Source: Spirochaetota bacterium
Lineage (GTDB): Bacteria > Spirochaetota > UBA4802 > UBA5550
NCBI GenBank assembly: GCA_050298055.1
Contig: JBNKTL010000020.1
Coordinates: forward strand, 2,028 to 66,027
DNA: 64,000 nt
Direction of reading: 5' to 3'
The notes beneath the pieces were generated by a model. The model had not been told where the DNA came from. It did no database searches and saw nothing but the letters and a program-made list of their open reading frames with translations. Positions within the stretch are counted from its first letter, which is position 1, and every line of letters begins with the position of its first letter. The translations under genes and the position numbers were made by a program. Below, piece after piece: positions 22,913 through 63,026 of the stretch.

Positions 22913-23028
22913 GGGGAAATGTCTCACCTTTCTTTTCGCGGGAAATAAATCGTCCCGTCCTTTTTCCCTTTTTTTCAATTTTATACTTGATTAGTTTATT
23001 CACTGTTTTATATTATGTGATGTTTAAT

Positions 23029-23163
23029 GGTAACTCAGTTATGGAGAGAAATCATATTCATTGAAAAATAACTGGTATGTCCCCGCCGCCTTCGGCGGCG
23101 GGGACATATTACTTATGTTTTAGTAAATATATTTATTTTATCCATATAGCTGAGTAGTAATGT
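23029..23163 (+). repeat. Family-1 palindromic repeat element, copy A (14-bp GC stem ATGTCCCCGCCGCC/GGCGGCGGGGACAT at 23077-23107 plus downstream AGCTGAGTAGTAATG motif; degenerate left TIR GGTAACTCAG)
   Basis: A perfect 14-bp inverted repeat with a 3-nt loop. The conserved 3' motif lies about 40 nt downstream. The same architecture recurs 5 more times in the window. Confidence 0.7.
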
Positions 23164-23252
23164 TTAATTAATCAGCTACATGGCTATTCTTAAACATTGT
23201 CTAAAATGCATTAACCTGAAAAATATCTCCGGGATGAAAAGGGAACAACTCA

Positions 23253-30600: not shown

Positions 30601-31671
30601 ATGATCTTCACACTGCTTGGTTTCCTTGCGGGATTCATATTGAACTTCTTCCTCCTCGTTCCGGAAACAGGTGCGGGTATAACACCGCAATTTTACGGTT
30701 CCCCTGATAATATGGAAATGATTGAGAAGGGGCATTCTCCTGCCGGAGAAAAATCTGAATTTTCCGTGAAAACCGAAAAGGGGATCTATCTTGTTGATAA
30801 TACCGGCAGTCTCATTGCCCGGAAGGAACTCTCCGACGGACTTGCCGCCGCAAGCGGAAACGGCAGGTTTTTTGTAAAGTATACAAAGACGGGTAATTCC
30901 GCCGAACTCTATAACATCAGCGGGGACCGGTTCTGGAAGATCAGGAGCCTCGAGTATCCCTCTCTCTCTTACAGCGGAAAGCTTATCCTGCTTCTCAACG
31001 GAGACCACAGCAGAGTGAGGGCCGTGGATGAGAATTGCCGTTTTATCCTGAAGGAGGGTATCCAGGGACGATTCTGCACTGTTCTCTCATTTTCCGAAAA
31101 GTCGGATATTGCCGCCCTGGGGTTCCTGGATGGGAGTTACCATGTTGTCAGCAGGGGGAAGGGTGTTCTTCTCAGCGGCCATCTTCCCGCGGGTAACAGT
31201 GTAAAGGGAATATCTCCCAGTAACAACGGCAAATATTGCGCGATACGTTACGGGGACACGGAGAGTGATACTCTGAGACTTGTCAACATTCAGGAAAATT
31301 CCAGCAGGAATGTAAAACTTGCAGATGTAAGATATACAAAATCTCCGCTCCATGTCACCGATGCCGGGTTTACCACTGTTCTGGGAAAAGAGAGTATTCT
31401 TAATATGGGGAGAAACGGTGACCTGATTTTCAGGATACTTGTCCCTCCCGCCAGAGATTCATTTGCCAGGATCAGCTTTAACGGCAACTATTATAGTGTT
31501 ACCTACTCAATGAAATCGGGGGGCTCCAAGCTGATCCTCTTTAACAGGGAAGGGAAGATCCTCTTCTCCCGGGAGTATGCAGATGAGGCCTACCTGGACA
31601 ACGAGATTAACGGGCACTTTATCCTGTTAAAAGGTCCCGGGCATATTTACTGTTATAGACTTCACGGTTAA
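30601..31671 (+). CDS. Hypothetical membrane-anchored beta-rich (propeller-like) protein
   Basis: It has an N-terminal transmembrane segment and a repetitive beta-strand-rich sequence. The ORF lies 2 nt downstream of the sigma factor gene. Confidence 0.4.
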   Translation: MIFTLLGFLAGFILNFFLLVPETGAGITPQFYGSPDNMEMIEKGHSPAGEKSEFSVKTEKGIYLVDNTGSLIARKELSDGLAAASGNGRFFVKYTKTGNSAELYNISGDRFWKIRSLEYPSLSYSGKLILLLNGDHSRVRAVDENCRFILKEGIQGRFCTVLSFSEKSDIAALGFLDGSYHVVSRGKGVLLSGHLPAGNSVKGISPSNNGKYCAIRYGDTESDTLRLVNIQENSSRNVKLADVRYTKSPLHVTDAGFTTVLGKESILNMGRNGDLIFRILVPPARDSFARISFNGNYYSVTYSMKSGGSKLILFNREGKILFSREYADEAYLDNEINGHFILLKGPGHIYCYRLHG

Positions 31672-35593: not shown

Positions 35594-35768
35594 TTTCGGT
35601 TGATCAAGGGTCCCGGTTAAGGGATATTTTTAGGTTTTTACTGTTTGACTCAAAAATAAAAAAGTGATAAAAATGAGGGCCTCAGCGGACCATAATGATG
35701 GCTGCTGTTATCCTAAAATAAGGAGGAATACTGCCCCGGGCAATAAAGAGGGGCAGTTGATTTTGCAC

Positions 35769-36311
35769 ATGAAAAATCATTTTATCAGGAAAGTTCTTAT
35801 CGGTTCCCTGCTTGTTGCTTTTTTTACGGCAACAGGATGTTACTACAATTCAACTTATCCCATTGATAACCCGTCAATGAAAAGGGACCCGAAACTCCTG
35901 GGGCAGTGGAAACCGGGTAAATACTCCAAGGAGTATTACGACATAAAAGCCGGGAAGGGCCCCTTTCTCTACAACATAGATCACTATAAGTATGACAGTA
36001 AGTTAAAGAAAGTGGTCCTGAAGATAAAATATACGGGGTATCTTTCGAGAGTGAAGAGTTATAACTTCATGAATGTGAAAAAGATCTGGGAACTGGACTA
36101 TAAGGGGAGAGGAAAGAGTATTCCGGCAGGCAGGCAGAAATACATGTTTTACAAGCTGAACAGACAGGGGGCAAACTTTTCAGCGGATATTGTAACCAGT
36201 AATATCAGGGAGAAGTTCTCTTCGTCAAATGATCTGAAATCTTTTTTCGAAAAATACGCGGACCTGAGCTTTTTTTATCACAGCCAGACTGTAAAATTTC
36301 TTAAGAAATAA
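35769..36311 (+). CDS. Hypothetical lipoprotein
   Basis: The internal ATG gives a canonical lipoprotein signal (MKNHFIRKVLIGSLLVAFFTATGC). Confidence 0.45.
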   Translation: MKNHFIRKVLIGSLLVAFFTATGCYYNSTYPIDNPSMKRDPKLLGQWKPGKYSKEYYDIKAGKGPFLYNIDHYKYDSKLKKVVLKIKYTGYLSRVKSYNFMNVKKIWELDYKGRGKSIPAGRQKYMFYKLNRQGANFSADIVTSNIREKFSSSNDLKSFFEKYADLSFFYHSQTVKFLKK

Positions 36312-36332
36312 AAGAGATTGAAAAAATTAAAA

Positions 36333-36422
36333 AATGCCGGCAATGTGTCCCCGCCGCCTTGAGCGGCGGGGACACATCTATTATTTTTTATTCATTAATA
36401 TATCTATTCTCAACAGAGCTGA
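36333..36422 (+). repeat. Family-1 palindromic repeat element, copy B (15-bp stem ATGTGTCCCCGCCGC, 3' motif AGCTGAGCAGTAACC)
   Basis: The hairpin is at 36333-36367 and the conserved motif at 36408-36422. It starts 22 nt after the stop of the upstream lipoprotein gene. Confidence 0.65.
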
Positions 36423-36560
36423 GCAGTAACCTTAATTCTATTAAAACAAATAAGCAAAAAAATCATATTGACATTTATCCCATATTGAGTAATTTTGAAA
36501 AAACAGCGGGACAATTTACCTTTCAAGAGTCATTGAATATATTTATATAAAGAGGGAATT

Positions 36561-49025: not shown

Positions 49026-49176
49026 TATTCAATATAAGAGGTTAATAATTAACGGCTACTCTTTATCAATTTTTGTTCCCTGTCAAACATTTATGGGTTT
49101 CTAAAATTAAATTTACAGCTACGTTACTACCCAAGCTTTGTATAAAATAGATATATTAGTGAATAAACGATAAGTA

Positions 49177-49272
49177 ATGTGTCTCCGCCGTTGACCGCGG
49201 CGGGGATACATGGATGTTATCCTATTAAATATGTTTCGCCATACGGCTAAGTCGTTTCGTAACTACTCAGCT
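49177..49272. repeat. Family-1 palindromic repeat element, copy C (degenerate stem; downstream motif present in inverted form GTAACTACTCAGCT)
   Basis: The hairpin at 49177-49213 has 2 mismatches. The conserved motif appears reverse-complemented at 49259-49272. Confidence 0.55.
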
Positions 49273-49505
49273 GAATGCAGAGTGACAATAAGGATATCCT
49301 GAAAATAATTTATGGAGGTTCTCTTAATATTATTGACAATATTTCAGAAGATCTTTCGTTATTGTTTTTTTGTCTCTGAATTGTTTTTTATGTGACAAAT
49401 AATGTATAATTATATATTATTGTTTTATATAAAAAAAGATAACTAATTAGATATTAAATAATTAAATATATGATCAAAATAACCTTTTTCTAAAAGATTA
49501 ATAAT

Positions 49506-49590
49506 ATGTCCCCGCCGCCGAAGGCGGCGGGGACATAAAAATTATGTTTTTCCATGGATATAATTATTCTAAGCATGTGTAGTTACGCAA
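49506..49590 (+). repeat. Family-1 palindromic repeat element, copy D (14-bp perfect stem, loop GAA; degenerate 3' motif GTGTAGTTAC)
   Basis: The hairpin at 49506-49536 has a stem sequence identical to copy A. Confidence 0.65.
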
Positions 49591-51475: not shown

Positions 51476-51518
51476 GAAATAATTTCTCTTTCAATAACTA
51501 TAAACTTTGTATTAAGGT

Positions 51519-51659
51519 AACTACTCGAGCTTAGTATAAGAATAACCATATTCATTAAAAATGATAACTGATATGTTCCCGCCGCCCACGGCGGCGGGAA
51601 CATATTGTTGATATTTTAGTAAATAGGATTATTTTGGTCATAGAGCTGAGTAGTTACAG
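51519..51659 (+). repeat. Family-1 palindromic repeat element, copy E, full-length (left TIR GGTAACTACTCGAGCT, 16-bp stem ATATGTTCCCGCCGCC, right TIR AGCTGAGTAGTTAC)
   Basis: The left and right ends are reverse complements of each other. The central perfect 16-bp hairpin is at 51571-51605. Confidence 0.75.
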
Positions 51660-52853: not shown

Positions 52854-54374
52854 TCAGAGATTTTTTTTCGCGAAGTTGTGGTGTTTAATAATTAACTTAT
52901 AATAATACCCGCTGTTTATCTTCAACTCTTTTTGTAAAAATTCACGTCCTTCCCTGTAGATTCTGTCTGCCTCTCTCCAGTCCCGGGCGTTCAGCTTTTT
53001 TATGCCCAGGTTGTCGATGAAGATGCAGATATTTCCTCTGTACTGTTCCCGGTATTTCTGTATGAAGTTTACGTTGTTAAAAACAGGGTCATTGAGCATT
53101 TCCATGATCAACCTGCCGTATTTTTTTATATTCTCAAGGTCTCCGGGAGTGTATTTCTTTCCCAGGAGGGAGTTGAATTCAACAATTGAGTTGTTCCAGA
53201 GGCTGTTCAGGATATCTCTGTTTTCCCTGATATATTTTTTTGCTGTCATTGATTCATTGATAAAGAGTTTAAGTACTTCCCTCATGTTATTCTTATCTGT
53301 ATTTTTCACCTGTTTCCTTCTTATAGCTGTGACAGCATTGCCGGAAAGGACCTCAATGTTGTAGCGGTGCTTGGCTGAAAATCTTTCGAAAATTTCATGG
53401 TCCAGTATTTTCGTATATCTCACATATTCTCTATGGATCTTTTCCGGATTTTTTTCTATGATACTCCTGGTAAACTGGAATACCTTGTAGAGGGTGTTAT
53501 TCACAATATAGTTTTCATCACCGGAGCTGAGATATGAACCAATGAGGGAAAGTGCAGCAGCCCTGCTGTAACTCTTTTCAACAGGAACTCCGGAATAGTT
53601 CATATCCCCTGAGAAGAGAAGAGACCTGTTGTTGTAGACCTGGACTACAGCAGAGATGTTGTCCATGGGTATCTTCTTCCTGTAATACACCACATCGAAT
53701 TTTATATTTTTCTTGTCAAAGATCCTCCTGTACCGGCCCTTTCCCGCATTGTATGGATCAAAACCGTACCTGTTGGTGGTCTCAACATCGATGGCGGTAC
53801 CGTTAATATCAATAAGTGAATAGATATGATCCGGTACCGATACCAGGCTTGTCCTGTACCCGAAGTATTGGAGAAAGGCATTATAGATGAGTGCCGACTT
53901 GTAGCAGTTGAACTTCCCGGAATCCAGTGTCTCCCTTATGCCGATGTTGTAACCCGCGGCATTTCCTCTCTGCTGGGTAAGAAAGTATTCGTCGTGCAGA
54001 AAATGAAGAAGGAATTCTGCCAGGTTATACCTGTTGAGTTTTCTGTCATATCCCTTTTCCCTTATAATCTTCCCGGCTTTTTCAACCCTGCTTCTGAAGT
54101 TTTCAAGGTAGCTGTTAAAGGTCTGTTCATGGGTAATGTCAGAAGAGAGAATGTATAGCCTGATCAGTTTGTCAGGATACTTTACTCCGTCGTCGGCAAC
54201 AATGGTCCTGTTCATCTCACGGAATTCCAGCCGGCTTATCTTTTCCGTAATCTCGGGGTAATCGAATATCCGGAGGTATGAACTGAAATTTCCCTCACGT
54301 CCATATAATGCTGCCTGGATAAGAAGCAGCATGATAATCAGCAGTTTCTTTTTTTTGTTCAATAATTGTGTCAT
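52854..54374 (-). CDS. Secreted transglutaminase-like cysteine-protease-fold protein
   Basis: It has a signal peptide and a Cys...His...Asp arrangement (GKFNCYKSALIYNAFL...SVPDHIYSLIDINGTAIDVETT). Confidence 0.5.
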   Translation of the reverse strand: MTQLLNKKKKLLIIMLLLIQAALYGREGNFSSYLRIFDYPEITEKISRLEFREMNRTIVADDGVKYPDKLIRLYILSSDITHEQTFNSYLENFRSRVEKAGKIIREKGYDRKLNRYNLAEFLLHFLHDEYFLTQQRGNAAGYNIGIRETLDSGKFNCYKSALIYNAFLQYFGYRTSLVSVPDHIYSLIDINGTAIDVETTNRYGFDPYNAGKGRYRRIFDKKNIKFDVVYYRKKIPMDNISAVVQVYNNRSLLFSGDMNYSGVPVEKSYSRAAALSLIGSYLSSGDENYIVNNTLYKVFQFTRSIIEKNPEKIHREYVRYTKILDHEIFERFSAKHRYNIEVLSGNAVTAIRRKQVKNTDKNNMREVLKLFINESMTAKKYIRENRDILNSLWNNSIVEFNSLLGKKYTPGDLENIKKYGRLIMEMLNDPVFNNVNFIQKYREQYRGNICIFIDNLGIKKLNARDWREADRIYREGREFLQKELKINSGYYYKLIIKHHNFAKKNL

Positions 54375-54533
54375 GGTATTGAACTTCCTTTATAGATAAA
54401 AGCTCCTTTTAATCAAGAAGATTTTTCATACAGATTTTTCCCAAACCTCCGCTCAACTATTATTAGTTGACATTTTTGGTATTGTATATTAAAAACTGCA
54501 GTTGATCTTATTAGTAATATCCGGAAACCAGAA

Positions 54534-56621: not shown

Positions 56622-56662
56622 AAAAAAAGCTGTCATTCTATTTCATCATGACAGCTTTTTTG
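56622..56662. terminator. Bidirectional intrinsic terminator between convergent genes
   Basis: A 14-bp stem (aaaaaagctgtcat / atgacagctttttt) flanked by an A run and a T run. Confidence 0.65.
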
Positions 56663-56702: not shown

Positions 56703-56909
56703 TCAAATGAGTCGCTCCTTCTTTGCAATTTCTCTCAATTCAAGTGCCTTCAATTCATCATACTTTATCAAATCATAAAATGAATTGACTTCGTACTCCA
56801 TGAAGGTCTTTCTGACAACATCATTGAAGCTGATCTTGCTGATCTTCAGCATCTTTCTGATGTTCATTTCTGCTAAAACTAAATCCGTGAGAAGCTGCTG
56901 GTCAACCAT
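56703..56909 (-). CDS. Hypothetical 68-aa protein
   Basis: A GAGGAGG RBS lies 6 nt upstream on the minus strand. Confidence 0.4.
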   Translation of the reverse strand: MVDQQLLTDLVLAEMNIRKMLKISKISFNDVVRKTFMEYEVNSFYDLIKYDELKALELREIAKKERLI

Positions 56910-57095
56910 CTATTCCTCCTCTGTATTAAGTTTCCCGCAGAGGAGCTTATAACATATAACGGGTAATATGCAATAGGAGAAATCCCTATTGTTTTGTAAT
57001 ACAAAGGAGAAAAGTTTTGTAGGTGTTTGTCCTACAAAATATCATTATTCTGTGACTATTCTGTTATGCATAAAAATTGATATTAATGACAACTG

Positions 57096-57186
57096 ATATG
57101 TTCCCGCCCCCTTCAGCGGCGGGAACATATTGTCTGTTCTTTATTAGGCAGATATATTTTTAGCCATACAGTTGAGTCGTTACTTT
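57096..57186 (+). repeat. Family-1 palindromic repeat element, copy F (13-bp stem ATATGTTCCCGCC; 3' motif AGTTGAGTCGTTAC)
   Basis: It shares the 5' flank ATGA(C/T)AACTGATATGTTCCCGCC with copy E. Confidence 0.6.
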
Positions 57187-57973
57187 ATTTTTTGTTGATA
57201 AATCGTGCAAGCTTATAATAAAATTCATTAGGATTATCGTTCATGGGGAAATGACCGCTCTTCGATATGCTCACAATTTGGATTTCGCTTATCAGGTCCA
57301 GCACTTTTCTGTGGGAGTTCTTCTCTCCGCAGAAATAGATTTTTTTGCATTTCAGGTCCTTAAACTTTTGTAATAACATACCGCTGTCAGTCCACCGGAC
57401 AAGTGATTTGGCACTTTTATTAAAGGCAGCGGGACTGGATTTTTCAATCCATTCAGCCCAGAGCTTTGTTCCCCTGTCGGTTTTTAGTATGTCAAAGTAT
57501 TTAAGTCTGTTAAACAGCGTCTGCTTAAATGATTCGAATGATGGTGATGTGACGGCACTCCTGCTGATACTGCAGTCAGTATTGAAAAGATTTCCTTCGA
57601 CGTTGGTGAAGGAGGCAATTCGGCCGGGAGAAAGATCAATGAGCAGGAGAGCAATTGCTCCCCCCATGCTGTGCCCCACAAGGTGGACTTTATCCCCGGG
57701 ATATTTTTCCAGGAGCAGCCTGCATATTTCCGCGTGGTCTTCCAGCCTGTATGAGAATTTACTGTTTTCCGGGGATTCGCCGAAGCCGGGAAGGTCCGGT
57801 GATATCAGGGAATAGTCTGTAAGTCTGTGAGAATTCCAGGCATCAACAAAAGATTCTCTCGTACAGCCCAGGCCGTGTATGAAAAAGATAATTTCGCTGC
57901 CGGTATCCCTCACATCTGCTGTGATTTCAATGGTGGTTTTCCCTTCAGGGATATTTAAGGTAAAAATATTCAT
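57185..57973 (-). CDS. Alpha/beta-fold hydrolase
   Basis: It has the HG oxyanion motif (IFFIHGLGCT) and the nucleophile elbow GHSMGG. Confidence 0.75.
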   Translation of the reverse strand: MNIFTLNIPEGKTTIEITADVRDTGSEIIFFIHGLGCTRESFVDAWNSHRLTDYSLISPDLPGFGESPENSKFSYRLEDHAEICRLLLEKYPGDKVHLVGHSMGGAIALLLIDLSPGRIASFTNVEGNLFNTDCSISRSAVTSPSFESFKQTLFNRLKYFDILKTDRGTKLWAEWIEKSSPAAFNKSAKSLVRWTDSGMLLQKFKDLKCKKIYFCGEKNSHRKVLDLISEIQIVSISKSGHFPMNDNPNEFYYKLARFINKK

Positions 57974-58276
57974 TATCTGTTTTTTTCTTGATTTCAGCCA
58001 GCAGGGGATCAATTGTTCATATGGGTACCTTTAATAATTTTTCATAATGATGTATTGTTTCCCGTTACAGTAAACATCATAGGATCGTGATTTTTTTCTG
58101 TCCAGAAAATAAAATACTTTTTTTAAGAATATCCGGAAATGATATATGGGTCCGGACTTCGGAATAGTATTTGAAAGGTCTTTGTTGATTTAAGAAAGTA
58201 TGAAAAAAACCGGAACTATTGAGCAGTGTATTGCTGCCACATGGTTGAACAGTAAAATAAAATAAGGATATGTGTT

Positions 58277-59065
58277 ATGAACCAGGACCAGGTAAAGAGA
58301 ATTCTTCTCAACCTTGAGGAGAATGTTCAGGAATTCAGTGTTGTCTTCTCAGGAAAAAAGAGCAAGAAAGTTGACGGTCTTTACAAGCCTGAAAGCAGAG
58401 AAATTCTCATTCACAATAAGAACTTTCCGGATGACAACCCGCTGATCTATACAGCCATCCATGAATTCGCACACCATATTCACCTCACCGGTTCTCAGGG
58501 AATAATGTCCGCAAGGGCCCACACGGGCAAGTTCTGGGAGATATTTCACAGGCTCCTCTACCTGGCCGAAGAGAAGGGGGCCTATGTAAATATTTTCAGA
58601 AAGGACACACGCTTTCTGGATCTCACAAAAAAGATCAGGGAAAATTACCTGAATGTGGATGCGCGTCTCATGAAGGAGCTGGGTTCGCTTCTCCTTGAGG
58701 CATTTAACCTCTGTGTTGAGAAACATGCAAGCTTTGACGACTATGTGGACAGGGAGCTTAAGCTCCACAGAAGTTCCGCCAGGTCCATCATACATATCCA
58801 CTCTAAAGATATAAATCCCGATATCGGTTATGAGAACATGAAGATCGTCGCCCGGGTAAGTGACTCTGATGAGATGAGAAAAGCAGAGGAGGCCTTTCTC
58901 AAAGGTGACAGTCCCGATATGGTTGTGCAGGAATACATCTCGCGAAAGGTCCCGGAGGACCTGCTGGAAAGTCTCCTTGTTGAGAAGTCAAGGACAGAGC
59001 AGAGTATCGAAAGGCTTAAAAGGAAGCTGACAAACATTGAAGAGAAGATAAAAAAGTACTCGTAA
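58277..59065 (+). CDS. SprT-like zinc metalloprotease-domain protein
   Basis: The core SGKKSKKVDGLYKPESREILIHNKNF...PLIYTAIHEFAHHIHL fits the SprT-like domain pattern, including HExxH. Confidence 0.5.
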   Translation: MNQDQVKRILLNLEENVQEFSVVFSGKKSKKVDGLYKPESREILIHNKNFPDDNPLIYTAIHEFAHHIHLTGSQGIMSARAHTGKFWEIFHRLLYLAEEKGAYVNIFRKDTRFLDLTKKIRENYLNVDARLMKELGSLLLEAFNLCVEKHASFDDYVDRELKLHRSSARSIIHIHSKDINPDIGYENMKIVARVSDSDEMRKAEEAFLKGDSPDMVVQEYISRKVPEDLLESLLVEKSRTEQSIERLKRKLTNIEEKIKKYS

Positions 59066-59142: not shown

Positions 59143-59523
59143 ATGGCAGTGAAAAATATCTACTGGATATATATACTCCTGTGTGACAACGGAAGCTATT
59201 ACACGGGATATACCGATGACCTTGTGAAACGTTACCGTCTGCACAGGAGCGGAAAGGGCGGCGCGAAATATACAAGGAGTTTTAAACCGGTGAGGATCGC
59301 GCAATGCTGGAAACTTACGGGAGGAAAGGGAACAGCCCTGAAGCTTGAAAATTTTATTAAGAGCAGGGAGCGGAAAGAGAAAGAAAAAATCGTTGCGAAT
59401 CCCGGGCTGCTTGAGAATCTCTTCAGCGGTGAAACAGGGATTAGTATTGAAATCAACCCCTGTGATCCCGATATAATTGAGAGTGAGGCCGGGAATATCA
59501 GACCGGATAAAGGGGCCGGGTGA
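59143..59523 (+). CDS. GIY-YIG nuclease-domain protein
   Basis: The GIY-YIG motif is present (IYWIYILLCDNGSYYTGYTDDLVKRYRLH...GGAKYT). Confidence 0.75.
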   Translation: MAVKNIYWIYILLCDNGSYYTGYTDDLVKRYRLHRSGKGGAKYTRSFKPVRIAQCWKLTGGKGTALKLENFIKSRERKEKEKIVANPGLLENLFSGETGISIEINPCDPDIIESEAGNIRPDKGAG

Positions 59524-62500
59524 AGAGATTGAAAGGAAGAGAGAAAGAAATCGCGGCCTTTATCGACGAGCTCAGGGACAGCCCGGGAAAGAGCGGCAGG
59601 CTTATAAATGGGCTTGTTGAAAAAACAAACCGCCTCTATCTGAACTTCCCCTTCATCGGACCGGCCAGGAGGATATCATCTGCTCTCAAGAAAGGCCCCT
59701 TTTCATATTTCTATGTTTTCGAAAGAACCCTTGCCCACAAACTCCATCCTCTTCTCTACAGGTTTGGGTTCAATATTATCTCCAACAGTGTCATCGATAG
59801 CCTCTATGATCAGAAGATGGAATACTATAAACCCCTTATGCCTCTGAAAGCCGGTAAAGTCCCCGGCAAAACCGTTGATCTCAAAATGAAAAACCTGGTC
59901 ATGATGAAGGATCTTATACTGCGGATGGTATTCAAGGATGGTCATTTCATGGTCATCAAATACTATGATAACAACTTCAGCAGGCTTGACCGGGAGCTTT
60001 CATCTATTCTGAAAAGTATTGAGCTCTCCATGCATAATATGAAGAGGGGGCTGACGGATGATAAAAAGAGCAACAGTGAAATGATAGGGAAGAGGTTTAA
60101 AATCTTCAGAGAAAACCGGGGAAAGGAAAACGGTCCCCTCTTTATTGAGAGAATGAAGTGGGATGAAGAGCTGAAGGAATATGCGGATATGCTCGGCGAG
60201 CTGAAAGAGGACAGATATGGTGAAAACAGTGACTCTGATCTCCGCACAATCGACCTTGAGAGTGGTGAGATTCCCGGTGGTGGTGAGGAAATGAGTGCAG
60301 ATGAACCTGCCGGTGAAGAGGATGATGATGCCCCAAAAGACCGGGAGAAGAAGACCGGGATTAACGGTTATGCGGACACCATTAAAGTGACGTACCTTGA
60401 CACAATCAGTGATGAAGATGCCCGTGCCGTTAAGAAAATCCTTGAGACCATATATACCACAAACCGGGAAAAGTCCGGTGAAGCAAAAGCAGAGGAGATC
60501 GTAACTGACATAGTCGGGATATGGCTCAATGATGAATTAATCAGCGGTGCAAAGAAGGATTTCCTGAGATCTGTACACCGGGAAATGTTCGGCAAGAATG
60601 AAGGTGAACCGGATGTTGAGAGGAGACTTGATGCCATAAGTGACTTTATGGATAATTTTGAGAAGGAAAATAAAGAACCTGTACCTGAAAATACCCTGTT
60701 TCAGAATGAAGATGAATTAAGAGGAGGTGTTCCCCATACTGAAGATAATGATGAACATGAAAGATCTTTCGATGTTGAGGAACCTTTTATAGAAGAGGAG
60801 CAAGGGGTTGAGATAAAAGATGATAATGTTCCGGAATTGGGTGAGTTCCCCGTATCGGGACCGGGAGAGGTTTCGGAACCGGGTGAGTTCCCCGTATCGG
60901 GACCGGGAGAGGTTCCGGAATTGGGTGAGTTCCCCGTATCGGGACCGGGAGATGTTTCGGAATTGGATGAGTTCCCCGTATCGGGACCGGGAGATGTTTC
61001 GGAATTGGATGAGTTTTCCGTATCGGGACCGGGAGAGGTTCCGGAATTGGGTGAGTTTTCCGTATCGGGACCGGGAGAGGTTGAGGAGCAGGAAAAACAT
61101 CTTCTTGAGGGAAGGAACGGCAGTGATACCGGTGATATCCGGGAACAGGGAGAGAAGAGATTACAGGAGATAGAGGACCGCCTTGATAAGAGGACCAGGG
61201 AGCTTGAAGAGGAGGCCGGTGATATATTAAACGGCAGTGATGAGGAGAAGAAAACAGCTTTTGTCATAAAGATGCTGGGGAGCGAAACAGGAAGTCAATC
61301 CCTCTTTAAAATTCTCCCTGATGCTGAAAGTTCCGGCGGCGAGAACCTCTTCATTAAAATTGTCCGCAAACTTGAGGAAGGGCCCTTCAGGTATATGACA
61401 CCTTCGGAAAAAGCCGCTTTTATCCGCAGGCTTATTGAGGTTTTCAGCGCGGATAAAAAACTCGTATCACAGCTTGAAAACTATAAGAAACTTATTGAAA
61501 GTCCTTCTGAGCTCCTGGGAAGCGTTACAAACAACCTGGAGAGAATAGGGAAAGAGAATCCTGATACCGGGTCAGCCATGGTGAAACAATTGAAGTATCT
61601 TGAAGAGGTCCTGAAGAATGAGGAATATGAACCTGTCTGGTTTACTGTGAAAACACTCTACAAAAATATTATAAAACAAAAAAAGAGCAATGTGATAGAA
61701 AATGTTACAGGTGACATGTCCGGGCAGCCGCAGTGGAAGCAGGCGGTCATTCTGCAATTTCTTAAGAGGTTCTACCGGGGAGACAGCAGGAAACAGGATG
61801 AACTGGGAAAGAAACTTGCTTTCCGGGAGCTGCAGTCACTCACGGAAAGAATTGAAAATGAAAGGAAGGGGGGAACAGCCGATATTAATGAGATCTTTAA
61901 AAAATTCACCGGGGGAAGTGCCGGGATCTCCCAATGGGCTGAGACCGTTATAAAGGAGCAAAGGAAGAAAAGGCCCGCCGGGGATGATCTTTATGATGAG
62001 AAGGAGATGACTCAGGAGGAGAAAATCTACAACAGGGCTCTCGAGCTGGTCAGGTCCTTCCGTGATAATATGGATGCCCTTGGCCCCATTATCAATGCTC
62101 TTGCGGGATTAAACAGGGGGGATTTTCAGTCACAGTTGATGAATGAATACCGGTCCGGCCTGAAAAAGAGGGAGGTACTTGTTAACAGGACGGTCAATGT
62201 TATTAAAACCGGAAAGCCGGACGGGAAACTGGTTGAAGTACTTCATAAATCACCTCCACTGTTCCAGTATGACTGGAGTGAAAGTGTAAAGAAAAAACTG
62301 GGTGCCGGAAGCCTTGAAGAAGCAATTAAACCTGTTGAAAAAAACAGGGACGCATATAGTGAACTCAACCGCATAGCCATGATAATAAAAACCAATAACA
62401 AGAATGATTTTCTCAAAAAGGCAGTTGAGAAGGAGAAGAAACTGGTCTCTGATATTGCAGGAGACCTCTCACTTGAAGGACTCAGGAAACTCAAATCCAG

Positions 62501-63026
62501 GACTGTGAGCATCAGGGACAAGGAGAAGATAAACCTCTTCAGGGACCTCGTGAAAATCGCAGGGGGGGCTGTTGATTCGACAAAAAACCAATATCAGGCT
62601 GTATCTGAGAAAAATGCTGCCGGTGAAGAGAAAAGCAGAGTTCATAAGAGGGAGGAATCGGAGCAGAAAACCGCAGCGGTGAAAGTGAAAAAAGATAAAC
62701 CGGAAGAACCGGAAATCCGGAACGGACCGGGTATCAGGGATATTCTCACTGAGATGAATAACTTTATCAATCTCTGCAAGTCGGAGAGAACCAGAAATAT
62801 GGCCATAAAGAGCAGTAAGAGACGGGTGACCATTGACAGCTTTTTTCAGCACCTGGCATCGGGGGATAAACCCAGTGTGGAAGCAGCAAAGAAAAATACC
62901 GATGAATTGATTGAAGTTTTTAAAGGGATCATTAAGCACCGGTTTCATAAAGCATTTCCCACTGCGGGACCGGCATTGAAATACTGTCTTGATAACGGAC
63001 TGATAAAAAGATCGGACCTTACCTGA
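59520..63026 (+). CDS. Large (1168 aa) acidic hypothetical protein with internal 13-aa tandem repeats
   Basis: A long uninterrupted ORF overlapping the GIY-YIG gene by 4 nt. It contains seven to eight G-E-F-P-V-S-G-P-G-E-V-P-E-L repeats. Confidence 0.6.
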   Translation: MKRLKGREKEIAAFIDELRDSPGKSGRLINGLVEKTNRLYLNFPFIGPARRISSALKKGPFSYFYVFERTLAHKLHPLLYRFGFNIISNSVIDSLYDQKMEYYKPLMPLKAGKVPGKTVDLKMKNLVMMKDLILRMVFKDGHFMVIKYYDNNFSRLDRELSSILKSIELSMHNMKRGLTDDKKSNSEMIGKRFKIFRENRGKENGPLFIERMKWDEELKEYADMLGELKEDRYGENSDSDLRTIDLESGEIPGGGEEMSADEPAGEEDDDAPKDREKKTGINGYADTIKVTYLDTISDEDARAVKKILETIYTTNREKSGEAKAEEIVTDIVGIWLNDELISGAKKDFLRSVHREMFGKNEGEPDVERRLDAISDFMDNFEKENKEPVPENTLFQNEDELRGGVPHTEDNDEHERSFDVEEPFIEEEQGVEIKDDNVPELGEFPVSGPGEVSEPGEFPVSGPGEVPELGEFPVSGPGDVSELDEFPVSGPGDVSELDEFSVSGPGEVPELGEFSVSGPGEVEEQEKHLLEGRNGSDTGDIREQGEKRLQEIEDRLDKRTRELEEEAGDILNGSDEEKKTAFVIKMLGSETGSQSLFKILPDAESSGGENLFIKIVRKLEEGPFRYMTPSEKAAFIRRLIEVFSADKKLVSQLENYKKLIESPSELLGSVTNNLERIGKENPDTGSAMVKQLKYLEEVLKNEEYEPVWFTVKTLYKNIIKQKKSNVIENVTGDMSGQPQWKQAVILQFLKRFYRGDSRKQDELGKKLAFRELQSLTERIENERKGGTADINEIFKKFTGGSAGISQWAETVIKEQRKKRPAGDDLYDEKEMTQEEKIYNRALELVRSFRDNMDALGPIINALAGLNRGDFQSQLMNEYRSGLKKREVLVNRTVNVIKTGKPDGKLVEVLHKSPPLFQYDWSESVKKKLGAGSLEEAIKPVEKNRDAYSELNRIAMIIKTNNKNDFLKKAVEKEKKLVSDIAGDLSLEGLRKLKSRTVSIRDKEKINLFRDLVKIAGGAVDSTKNQYQAVSEKNAAGEEKSRVHKREESEQKTAAVKVKKDKPEEPEIRNGPGIRDILTEMNNFINLCKSERTRNMAIKSSKRRVTIDSFFQHLASGDKPSVEAAKKNTDELIEVFKGIIKHRFHKAFPTAGPALKYCLDNGLIKRSDLT
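60829..61084 (+). repeat. 39-bp tandem DNA repeat (about 6.5 copies) encoding the GEFPVSGPGEV(P/S)EL repeats
   Basis: Near-identical 39-nt units ccggaattgggtgagttccccgtatcgggaccgggagaggtt. They generate spurious ORFs on both strands. Confidence 0.8.

What the first reader, a model, noticed from the sequence alone, without database searches (positions are those of the whole stretch)
51519..51659. Family of at least 6 intergenic palindromic MITE/REP-like elements, with a full-length copy carrying terminal inverted repeats
Six intergenic sites share one architecture: 23077-23107, 36333-36367, 49177-49213, 49506-49536, 51571-51605 and 57096-57130. Each has a GC-rich perfect or near-perfect hairpin of the form ATGT(C/T)CCCGCCGCC-loop-GGCGGCGGG(G/A)ACAT, with a 13-16 bp stem. 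About 40 nt downstream lies a conserved motif AGCTGAGTAGTTAC. Copies E and F also share a 5' flank ATGA(C/T)AACTGATATG. In copy E the element is bounded by GGTAACTACTCGAGCT and AGCTGAGTAGTTACC, which are reverse complements of each other, giving a roughly 140-bp element with TIRs. Copy A has a degenerate left TIR, and copy C carries the 3' motif in inverted orientation. This looks like a non-autonomous mobile element or REP-like family rather than a set of terminators. It could also be a structured small-RNA family. I know of no described element with this exact sequence.
Basis: seen in the sequence. Interest (0 to 1): 0.75.

Follow-up and report, generated by a model that had tools for sequence, protein, structure and literature searches.

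The report
Hairpin-tipped MITE family in a spirochaete
The six palindromic intergenic repeats are real copies of a small non-coding "jumping" DNA element (a MITE) in an uncultured spirochaete; it is a new family of a common, well-known kind, and its only odd feature is a strongly conserved GC-rich hairpin at its centre.

Summary
The window holds six full copies and one end fragment of a 132-148 bp AT-rich, non-coding element. Each copy is an imperfect palindrome along its whole length. The ends are 5'-GTAACTACTCAGCT...AGCTGAGTAGTTAC-3', and the centre is a 13-16 bp GC-rich hairpin.

The host is an uncultured Spirochaetota bacterium. Related genomes show presence/absence differences. Sites A and E are empty in relatives, and one relative carries a copy at a site that is empty in the window. 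Flanking 8-9 bp direct repeats (target-site duplications) occur in most full-length copies.

A 121-bp sister family in other Spirochaetota has the same hairpin tip and a homologous end core. It shows perfect 9-bp duplications in 3 of 3 copies. In a 93%-related genome the matching site is empty and holds a single copy of the 9-mer.

This is a MITE: a non-autonomous transposon moved in trans by a DDE-type transposase. The parent insertion sequence was not found. The ends and duplication length fit IS66-like or IS1-like elements, and these are only leads.

REP/RAYT, plain terminator and primary small-RNA readings are disfavoured. The strong conservation of the tip hairpin is not explained. Verdict: a new member of a known kind, of modest interest.

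The parts
23030..23161 (+). Copy A, full length (132 bp). Ends are GTAACTCAG... and ...GAGTAGTAAT. Tip hairpin at 23077-23107. Flanking direct repeats are GTTTAATG (23022-23029) and GTTTAATT (23162-23169). Read as an exact 9-mer, they are ATGTTTAAT at 23020-23028 and 23160-23168.
   Evidence: (E 3e-37). The site is empty in the 95% relative L014 and in L013.
36290..36430 (+). Copy B. Tip hairpin at 36333-36367, right end ...GAGCAGTAAC at 36430. The left arm is diverged and overlaps the last codons and stop of ORF 35664-36311, so the left boundary is approximate.
   Evidence: (E 9e-35)
49123..49258 (-). Copy C, full length on the minus strand (136 bp). The tip hairpin at 49177-49213 has 2 mismatches. 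Both ends are diverged.
   Evidence: (E 2e-33)
49259..49302 (-). C', a solo right-end fragment (AGCTGAGTAGTTAC plus about 30 nt of arm). It abuts the left end of copy C directly.
   Evidence: weak hit 49302-49258, E 0.11
49439..49586 (+). Copy D (about 148 bp). The tip hairpin at 49506-49536 is perfect. Right end is ...TGTGTAGTTAC; the left end ATAACTAATTAG is diverged.
   Evidence: (E 1e-28)
51517..51657 (+). Copy E, full length (141 bp), with the best inverted repeats: GTAACTACTCGAGCT and AGCTGAGTAGTTAC. Tip hairpin at 51571-51605 has a perfect 16-bp stem. No target-site duplication is recognisable.
   Evidence: (E 9e-36). The site is empty in L019 (18-nt intergenic gap) and L020.
57052..57183 (+). 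Copy F, full length (132 bp). Ends are GTGACTATTC... and ...GAGTCGTTAC. Tip hairpin at 57096-57130. The 8-bp flanks ATTATTCT and TTTATTTT match at 6 of 8 positions. The right end lies 1 nt from the stop codon of the hydrolase gene 57185-58012.
   Evidence: (E 3e-31)

Best explanation
[quoted passage not shown] Each unit is 132-148 bp, AT-rich and non-coding. It has about 15-20 bp terminal inverted repeats with consensus 5'-GTAACTACTCAGCT. It is an imperfect palindrome along its whole length, and a 13-16 bp GC-rich stem forms the tip.

Inferred mechanism: a DDE-type transposase, encoded elsewhere by an autonomous insertion sequence with matching ends, binds the two inverted repeats. It inserts the element into AT-rich intergenic DNA through staggered cuts 8-9 bp apart, and repair of those cuts produces the flanking direct repeats.

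Shown here: the repeat family, the inverted repeats, the flanking duplications, the insertion polymorphism between relatives, and the absence of a transposase in the window.

Inferred only: the transposase class and its identity (IS66-like or IS1-like ends are leads), and any effect of the hairpin on transcription.
For: 1) Family and architecture. There are six copies at E = 1e-28 to 3e-37. The alignment has conserved ends and tip. The folds are about 140-nt hairpins with z about -9.

2) Mobility. Site A is empty in L014 (CheW 95% identical), whose left flank is identical right up to the junction. It is also empty in L013 (99-nt intergenic gap). At almost the same spot, L026 (88% relative) carries an inverted, tip-deleted 85-bp derivative. 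Site E is empty in L019 (80% relative; 18-nt gap between the convergent genes). In L020 it is occupied by an ordinary small terminator. L020 has a copy in the YhhN/498-aa divergent region that is empty in the window at 54375-54533. L020 also has a copy at a different position within the site-F intergenic region, and L019 has a copy near site D in the opposite orientation.

3) Target-site duplications. An unbiased scan found exact 9-bp flanking repeats in 5 of 8 full-length elements. Mismatched-pair controls never exceeded 7. With the ends fixed at GTAAC/GTTAC, the 8-bp flanks match 7/8 (A), 8/8 (L020F), 6/8 (F) and 6/8 (L020G). The AT-rich null gives P(>=6) = 0.008.

4) Sister family. L004, L008 and L010 carry a 121-bp element that is also from Spirochaetota. 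It has the same tip hairpin and a homologous end core (GTAATTATTC against GTAACTACTC). All 3 copies have perfect 9-bp duplications. The 93% relative L023 has a single AAATGATAC where L008 has AAATGATAC-[121 bp]-AAATGATAC.

5) Genomic context. Copies lie in tandem, convergent and divergent intergenic regions and in both orientations.

6) Known background. Published MITE descriptions match these traits: AT-rich elements in AT-rich intergenic sites, with stable stem-loop transcripts (PMC10969869). Only some copies keep their duplications (40% for MITEAba12; PMC6382973). Spirochaetes are MITE-rich (PMC11602168).
Against: - No autonomous partner or transposase was found. None is in the window (Pfam), and the public collection scans could not be repeated.
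- Copy E, the best palindrome, has no recognisable duplication (0/8).
- The duplication length is ambiguous in the window family. It is 8 bp if the ends are held constant, or an exact 9 bp if the ends are shifted by 1-2 nt.
- Copies are diverged: 53-74% pairwise overall and about 50-58% in the inner arms. This is an old or multi-lineage family, not a recent burst.
- Genome-wide copy number is unknown.
- The tip stem is conserved (75-81%) well above the arms and shows compensatory changes. A plain MITE model does not predict this.
Confidence: 0.85

Rival explanations
1. The elements are MITEs, but the GC-rich tip hairpin is a selected functional module. It could be a portable two-way transcription stop or an RNA-end stabiliser that the host tolerates or uses. 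Alternatively it could be a fold-back clamp that brings the two ends together for the transposase. This extends the best explanation rather than excluding it.
For: The tip stems are 75-81% conserved, against 50-58% for the inner arms. Three stem pairs show compensatory double changes: AU5/GC2/CG1, GC7/CG1 and CG6/UA3. Copy D keeps a perfect stem although its arms and ends have decayed. The same tip is shared by subfamilies whose outermost bases and duplication lengths differ. Copies E, F and B sit at gene 3' ends, and a lenient scan flags D(-) and E(+) as terminator-like. A terminator-like mobile element, SPRITE, is already known (PMC10969869).
Against: No U-tract follows the stem directly (it reads GGGGACAUAUU...). 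Native terminators in the same window do have one. Four of twelve copies lie in divergent promoter regions, where nothing needs terminating. Intrastrand repair within a palindrome could keep the two stem halves matched without any selection. A tip-deleted copy exists. (GCC)n hairpins are simple and also occur as ordinary terminators in unrelated GC-rich contigs (L003, L005).
Confidence: 0.25
2. A REP/REPIN family: short extragenic palindromes copied by a RAYT (IS200/IS605-like tyrosine transposase) that acts on single-stranded hairpins.
For: The hairpins are GC-rich, extragenic and present in several copies, and a GTAG tetranucleotide lies inside the terminal motif GAGTAGTTAC.
Against: Most full-length copies have 8-9 bp target-site duplications, and there is an exact filled/empty pair. 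REP/RAYT and IS200/IS605 elements do not make duplications (established knowledge). The GTAG lies about 45 nt from the hairpin rather than next to it, as it does in GTAG-tagged REPs (abstract of PMC3733652, listed). The units have long inverted repeats and occur singly rather than in clusters. No Y1 transposase is present in the window.
Confidence: 0.03
3. A family of structured small RNAs or cis-regulatory RNA leaders, whose conserved 3' motif is part of the transcript.
For: The folds are very stable and some stem pairs covary. In A-D the right end points toward the start of the next gene. Weak sigma-70-like hexamers occur in the right arm of E and F. Small RNAs derived from MITEs are known in Coxiella (PMC10969869).
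Against: There is no Rfam match even at E <= 10. Both strands score as the element because it is a palindrome. In E and F the same end faces a gene's 3' end. Insertion polymorphism and duplications show that the unit is mobile DNA. Covariation over the whole structure is only modest (14 pairs with double changes against 10.8 in shuffles).
Confidence: 0.05
4. Ordinary intrinsic terminators that merely share a local sequence context.
For: The stems are GC-rich, and B, E and F lie just after stop codons.
Against: Conserved inverted repeats lie 45 nt away on both sides. C, D, L019, L020G and L008 sit between divergent gene starts. No U-tract lies adjacent to the stem. Relatives lack the element at the same gene ends.
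Confidence: 0.02

Closest known systems
Bacterial MITEs in general (for example QMITE2 of Coxiella burnetii and MITEAba12 of Acinetobacter)
   Same: Small, AT-rich and non-coding, with terminal inverted repeats. The flanking direct repeats are of similar length (QMITE2 7-9 bp; MITEAba12 9 bp). Insertions are intergenic and AT-rich, and the transcripts are predicted to form long stable stem-loops. Only some copies keep intact duplications (PMC10969869; PMC6382973).
   Different: There is no sequence similarity to described elements: no match in Rfam, plasmids or phages. The host is an uncultured Spirochaetota lineage. The GC-rich clamp at the palindrome centre is the best-conserved part and is shared across subfamilies. 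No parent insertion sequence has been identified.
SPRITE of Streptococcus pneumoniae, a repeat that resembles a Rho-independent terminator
   Same: A dispersed small repeat whose core is a terminator-like hairpin (PMC10969869).
   Different: The hairpin here has no adjacent U-tract. The element also has clear inverted repeats and target-site duplications.
ERIC/IRU (MITEEc1) and Correia/NEMIS elements
   Same: Imperfect palindromes of about 100-150 bp in intergenic DNA that can fold into one long hairpin when transcribed. These properties are recalled from general knowledge; only the name MITEEc1 was seen in a text read here (PMC11602168).
   Different: The ends are different. Correia elements duplicate TA (from memory), whereas these elements duplicate 8-9 bp. 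There is no sequence similarity.
IS66-family insertion sequences, as candidate parent
   Same: IS66 inverted repeats start with GTAA (GTAAGCG... or GTAACCG...) and make 8-bp direct repeats (PMC11946415; PMC12888890). The window family ends in GTAAC and fits an 8-bp duplication.
   Different: Beyond GTAAC the repeats differ (GTAACTACTC against GTAACCGTCC). The sister family starts CAGTAAT and makes 9-bp duplications. No IS66 transposase was seen.
IS1-family insertion sequences, as candidate parent
   Same: The IS1 end GGTAATGACTCCAACTTATTGAT was verified on plasmid R100. It matches the left end of copy E at 15 of 20 positions in register. IS1 makes 8-9 bp duplications and prefers AT-rich targets (from memory).
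   Different: Only A and E start with GG. The family hallmark GGnnnTG (from memory) is not met, since the sequence is GGTAACT. After correcting for multiple comparisons the similarity is only suggestive. No IS1 transposase was seen.

Membership tests
MITE (non-autonomous DDE-transposon derivative) | Small size (under about 300 bp) and no coding capacity | tested here: met
   Units are 132-148 bp in the window family and 121 bp in the sister family. No ORF of 100 aa or more overlaps any copy except at the ends of neighbouring genes. Coding capacity within the elements was not tested directly.
MITE (non-autonomous DDE-transposon derivative) | Terminal inverted repeats | tested here: met
   GTAACTACTC(G)AGCT pairs with AGCTGAGTAGTTAC in E. 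Recognisable inverted repeats are present in A, F, C, D, L020F and L020G.
MITE (non-autonomous DDE-transposon derivative) | Target-site duplication of fixed length | tested here: met
   Exact 9-bp repeats flank 5 of 8 elements, against a control maximum of 7. The 8-bp flanks match 6-8/8 in 4 of 6 window-family copies, with a null P(>=6) of 0.008. Copy E lacks one. Whether the length is 8 or 9 bp is unresolved for the window family.
MITE (non-autonomous DDE-transposon derivative) | Multiple dispersed copies with insertion polymorphism (filled versus empty orthologous sites) | tested here: met
   Sites A and E are empty in relatives. Site G is filled in L020 and empty in the window. The L008/L023 pair is an exact filled/empty comparison.
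MITE (non-autonomous DDE-transposon derivative) | A cognate autonomous insertion sequence with matching inverted repeats in the same or related genomes | not testable with these tools
   No transposase is in the window. Viral, plasmid and phage searches were empty.
REP / REPIN (RAYT-mobilised) | No target-site duplication | tested here: not met
   Duplications are present.
REP / REPIN (RAYT-mobilised) | A GTAG or CGTC tag immediately next to the 20-40 bp palindrome | tested here: not met
   The hairpin is flanked by ATATGT and ACATAT. The only GTAG lies about 45 nt away, in the terminal repeat. The criterion is taken from the abstract of PMC3733652 (listed).
REP / REPIN (RAYT-mobilised) | An associated RAYT gene | tested here: inconclusive
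   None is in the 64-kb window. The rest of the genome is not available.
Intrinsic (Rho-independent) terminator | A GC-rich stem followed immediately by a U-tract, located at transcript ends | tested here: not met
   The stem is followed by ACAUAUU..., and the T-run starts about 10 nt later. Several copies lie between divergent gene starts. Only a lenient scan flags two copies.
Any described RNA family (Rfam 15) | A match to a covariance model | tested here: not met
   There are no hits at gathering score. With E <= 10 only sub-threshold microRNA and snoRNA noise appears.
IS66-derived element | Ends start with GTAA, and direct repeats are 8 bp | tested here: inconclusive
   The window family meets both criteria (criteria from PMC11946415 and PMC12888890). 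The sister family (CAGTAAT, 9 bp) does not fit cleanly. No TnpC was seen.
IS1-derived element | Ends fit GGnnnTG, and direct repeats are 8-9 bp | tested here: inconclusive
   The duplication length fits, and copy E's left end matches the IS1 right end at 15/20 positions. The GGnnnTG rule (from memory) is not met, and GG is present in only 2 copies.

The most novel reading that the evidence does not exclude
The GC-clamped tip hairpin may be a functional module that the element must keep, rather than a by-product of the palindrome. It could be a fold-back device that pairs the two ends on single-stranded DNA for the transposase. It could also be a portable two-way transcription barrier that lets the element settle next to genes. 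This would explain three things: it is the best-conserved part, it shows compensatory changes, and it is shared by Spirochaetota MITE subfamilies whose outermost bases and duplication lengths differ.
Probability: 0.25. Interest if true: 0.45.

Novelty: new member of a known kind. Interest (0 to 1): 0.3.

Why it matters
The element explains unannotated conserved intergenic sequence. It may also contribute to breaks in short-read assemblies of this uncultured Spirochaetota lineage. It provides markers of recent insertion for comparing strains. It adds a case of a MITE superfamily whose centre, not only its ends, is conserved. If the hairpin acts on transcription, these insertions would rewire the 3' ends and promoter regions of chemotaxis and housekeeping genes. 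None of this changes what is known about the mechanisms of mobile DNA.

Tried and rejected
- Rfam scans of the whole window at gathering score, and of 48.9-51.8 kb at E <= 10, found nothing relevant. No tRNA genes were found.
- The single genome-collection scan used a pattern that was too strict: the full 31-nt palindrome with ATGT flanks. It returned only a GC-rich Chloroflexia contig, where the hairpin looks like an ordinary two-way terminator. The scan could not be repeated, so genome-wide copy number and the parent insertion sequence remain unknown.
- Viral-contig scans for the hairpin and for the end motif returned nothing and one chance hit inside a coding region.
- BLAST of copy E against plasmids and phages found no match.
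- A literature search by assembly and run accessions returned nothing.
- Short-read contigs that begin inside copy A (L001, L002) were first taken as evidence of high copy number. This was rejected as weak, because a self-complementary 31-mer can by itself break a de Bruijn assembly.
- The REP/RAYT, plain-terminator and primary-small-RNA readings were considered and disfavoured (see the rival explanations).
- IS1 parentage was tested by verifying the IS1 ends on plasmid R100. The 15/20 match is suggestive, but the family hallmark is not met.
- Covariation over the full 62-pair fold is only modest. The clear signal is confined to the tip stem.

Full report
OBSERVATION. The six hairpins lie at the coordinates given. 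The core CCCGCCGCC-N3-GGCGGCGGG occurs three times, with none expected in 100 shuffles. The motif AGCTGAGTAGTTAC with up to 3 mismatches occurs 8 times against 2.65 expected, and six of those lie about 40 nt from a hairpin. A profile built from the six sites finds exactly these six in the 64-kb window (E = 1e-28 to 3e-37), and nothing else scores better than E = 0.03. Each site also scores on the opposite strand, because the whole unit is an imperfect palindrome. Copies E and A fold into single hairpins of about 140 nt (-65.2 and -59.7 kcal/mol; z = -9.8 and -8.8). The window is 44.5% G+C. The arms of the element are 20-31% G+C and the tip stem is 62-69%.

ANATOMY. The unit is 132-148 bp. It has five parts:
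- A left terminal repeat, GTAACTACTC(G)AGCT.
- An AT-rich left arm.
- A 13-16 bp GC-rich stem with a 3-4 nt loop.
- An AT-rich right arm.
- A right terminal repeat, AGCTGAGTAGTTAC.

Copy C is a complete minus-strand copy at 49123-49258. The perfect motif at 49259-49272 belongs to a separate truncated copy (C') that abuts it. Copy B's left arm overlaps the last codons and stop of ORF 35664-36311.

Pairwise identity between copies is only 53-74%. By region, the tip stems are 75-81% identical, the right terminal repeat 71%, and the inner arms 50-58%. Three tip-stem pairs show compensatory double changes: AU5/GC2/CG1, GC7/CG1 and CG6/UA3. Covariation over all 62 pairs is modest.

HOST AND CONTEXT. 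Homologues of the flanking CheW and DUF5715 proteins are named Spirochaetota or Spirochaetes bacterium by their sources. The window is a housekeeping chromosomal region with flagellar export, chemotaxis, cobalamin and sigma-factor genes, and it has no transposase. Copies lie between tandem genes (A, B), between divergent gene starts (C, D) and between convergent gene ends (E). F lies just after a gene stop and upstream of a small ORF.

MOBILITY. Several orthologous sites differ between relatives:
- Site A is empty in L014 (CheW 95% identical). Its left flank is identical up to the junction, but its right flank is diverged, so that empty site is supportive rather than exact. Site A is also empty in the syntenic L013 (77% identical; 99-nt intergenic gap).
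- In L026 (88% identical) an inverted 85-bp derivative lies 8 nt away. It has lost the tip and inner arms, and its 8-bp flanks match 6/8 by manual comparison.
- Site E is empty in L019 (80% identical), where the convergent genes are 18 nt apart. In L020 (70% identical) the site holds an ordinary small terminator.
- L020 has a copy in the YhhN/498-aa divergent region, which is empty in the window at 54375-54533. It also has a copy at a different position within the site-F intergenic region.
- L019 has one copy near site D, in the opposite orientation.

The same-species assembly L018 has copies C, D and E with the same profile scores as in the window.

TARGET-SITE DUPLICATIONS. I scanned for flanking direct repeats while allowing the ends to slide by up to 3 nt. 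This found exact 9-bp repeats in 5 of 8 full-length elements:
- A: ATGTTTAAT
- L020F: ATTTCATCC
- L004: TATGATAAT
- L008: AAATGATAC
- L010: AAATTTTTT

Pairing the left flank of one element with the right flank of another never gave more than 7. With the window-family ends fixed at GTAAC/GTTAC, the 8-bp flanks match 7/8 (A), 8/8 (L020F), 6/8 (F), 6/8 (L020G), about 5/8 (C, by a manual recount after correcting the boundary; one search scored 2/8 with boundaries 2 nt off) and 0/8 (E). In AT-rich parts of the window the chance of 6 or more matches is 0.008. The duplication is therefore 8 or 9 bp. The targets are AT-rich.

SISTER FAMILY. The one metagenome scan for the hairpin returned six AT-rich contigs. 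L004, L008 and L010 carry a 121-bp element with the same tip (TGTCCCCGCCGCC-N3-GGCGGCGGGGACA). Its ends are CAGTAATTATTCC and CAGTGTTAATTCC. The core GTAATTATTC differs from the window's GTAACTACTC only by two C/T transitions, by direct comparison of the sequences. L008 also comes from an uncultured Spirochaetota, and its CheD is 49% identical to the window's. The 93% relative L023 has a single AAATGATAC exactly where L008 has AAATGATAC-[121 bp]-AAATGATAC. This is a textbook filled/empty pair. L012, L007 and L011 carry the same tip with yet other arms (ATTATYAGACTTGTTG) and were not followed further.

INTERPRETATION. Size, lack of coding capacity, inverted repeats, fixed-length duplications, AT-rich intergenic targets, insertion polymorphism and long stem-loop potential are the defining traits of bacterial MITEs (PMC10969869; PMC6382973). 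Spirochaetes are reported to be MITE-rich (PMC11602168). I therefore file the family as a MITE with confidence 0.85.

The inferred mechanism is mobilisation in trans by a DDE transposase that makes cuts staggered by 8-9 bp. The parent element was not found. There are two leads:
- IS66-family elements have ends starting GTAA and make 8-bp repeats (PMC11946415; PMC12888890). This fits the window family.
- The right end of IS1, verified on plasmid R100, matches the left end of copy E at 15/20 positions in register. However, the GG start is not general in this family, and the similarity is only suggestive once the number of comparisons is taken into account.

RIVALS. REP/RAYT is contradicted by the duplications and by the lack of a tag next to the hairpin. 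Plain terminators are contradicted by copies lying between divergent gene starts, by the missing adjacent U-tract (native terminators in the window have one) and by the empty sites. A small-RNA family has no Rfam support and no consistent orientation relative to genes. Transcripts from copies remain possible, as for other MITEs.

UNEXPLAINED. The tip hairpin is conserved far above the arms, with compensatory changes, and it is shared across subfamilies. This could reflect selection, for example as a fold-back clamp or a transcription barrier. It could also reflect intrastrand correction within a palindrome. The tip-deleted copy in L026 shows that the hairpin can be lost. The same (GCC)n hairpin also occurs as an ordinary terminator in unrelated GC-rich contigs, so independent origin is conceivable.

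LIMITS. Copy number is known only locally:
- 6-7 copies per 64 kb in the window.
- 2 copies per 13 kb in L020.
- 1 copy per 6.6 kb in L019.
- 0 copies per 20 kb in L013 and in L015.

VERDICT. It is a new, undescribed family of a well-known kind, and of modest interest (0.3).

Noticed in passing
window 56703-56909 (minus strand): An unannotated 68-aa ORF (MVDQQLLTDLVLAEMNIRKM...) lies between the FAD-protein gene and copy F. A canonical hairpin-plus-T-run terminator sits near 56650, and a second hairpin lies at 57014-57040. Copy F therefore sits upstream of this small gene, not simply between two convergent genes.
   Followed up: partly
window 49378-49398 (minus strand): TTGTCACATAAAAAACAATTC in the FKBP/285-aa divergent intergenic region is conserved in the 80% relative, with weaker similarity in the 70% relative (L019, L020), while the surrounding sequence has diverged. 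It is probably an operator or promoter element. It occurs once in the window against 0 expected.
   Followed up: partly
window 59143-63026 (+): A 126-aa GIY-YIG nuclease-domain protein overlaps the start of a 1168-aa ORF that has no Pfam domain at E <= 1e-5. Other sizeable ORFs also lack Pfam hits: 52854-54374 (506 aa), 30601-31671 and 58277-59065.
   Followed up: no
window 35664-36311 / 36290-36332: The last roughly 7 codons and the stop of ORF 35664-36311 lie inside the diverged left arm of copy B. The insertion may have replaced the original C-terminus of the gene.
   Followed up: no
L026 207-291: An 85-bp derivative of the window family keeps both ends but lacks the GC tip and inner arms. 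It is inverted relative to copy A and lies 8 nt from A's insertion point. This suggests an insertion hot spot upstream of cheW, and loss of the palindrome centre.
   Followed up: partly
L012 about 1940-2050; L007 about 60-175; L011 about 1960-2080: Further AT-rich metagenome contigs carry the identical tip hairpin with a third type of arm (ATTATYAGACTTGTTG). In L007 and L011 a direct repeat ATGAATAAT brackets the left arm plus hairpin. Their host and boundaries were not resolved.
   Followed up: partly
L003 4704-4734; L005 2575-2603; L009 2283-2311; L006 320-348: The same (GCC)3-loop-(GGC)3 hairpin occurs in GC-rich contigs. In the Chloroflexia contig L003 it is flanked by T-runs on both sides, like an ordinary two-way terminator. 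The tip sequence is therefore simple enough to arise independently.
   Followed up: no
tip loops of copies A (23091-23093), D (49520-49522), and L004/L010: The loop triplets TTC and GAA are reverse complements of each other among copies that share the same arm orientation. This suggests occasional flipping of the hairpin tip within the palindrome. Many loops read as C(UNCG)G or C-GAA-G, which are unusually stable loop types (from general knowledge).
   Followed up: no
L020 10841-10931 (orthologue of site E): Where the window has copy E, the 70% relative has a short ordinary hairpin, TTTTCCCGTCTTTGGCGGGGGAAAA, between the convergent SpoIIE-domain and DUF5715 genes.
   Followed up: no
L001 1-90; L002 1-30: Short-read contigs of the same species begin inside copy A, and L001 starts exactly at the GC stem. 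This is consistent with the self-complementary hairpin or the repeat breaking de Bruijn assemblies.
   Followed up: partly
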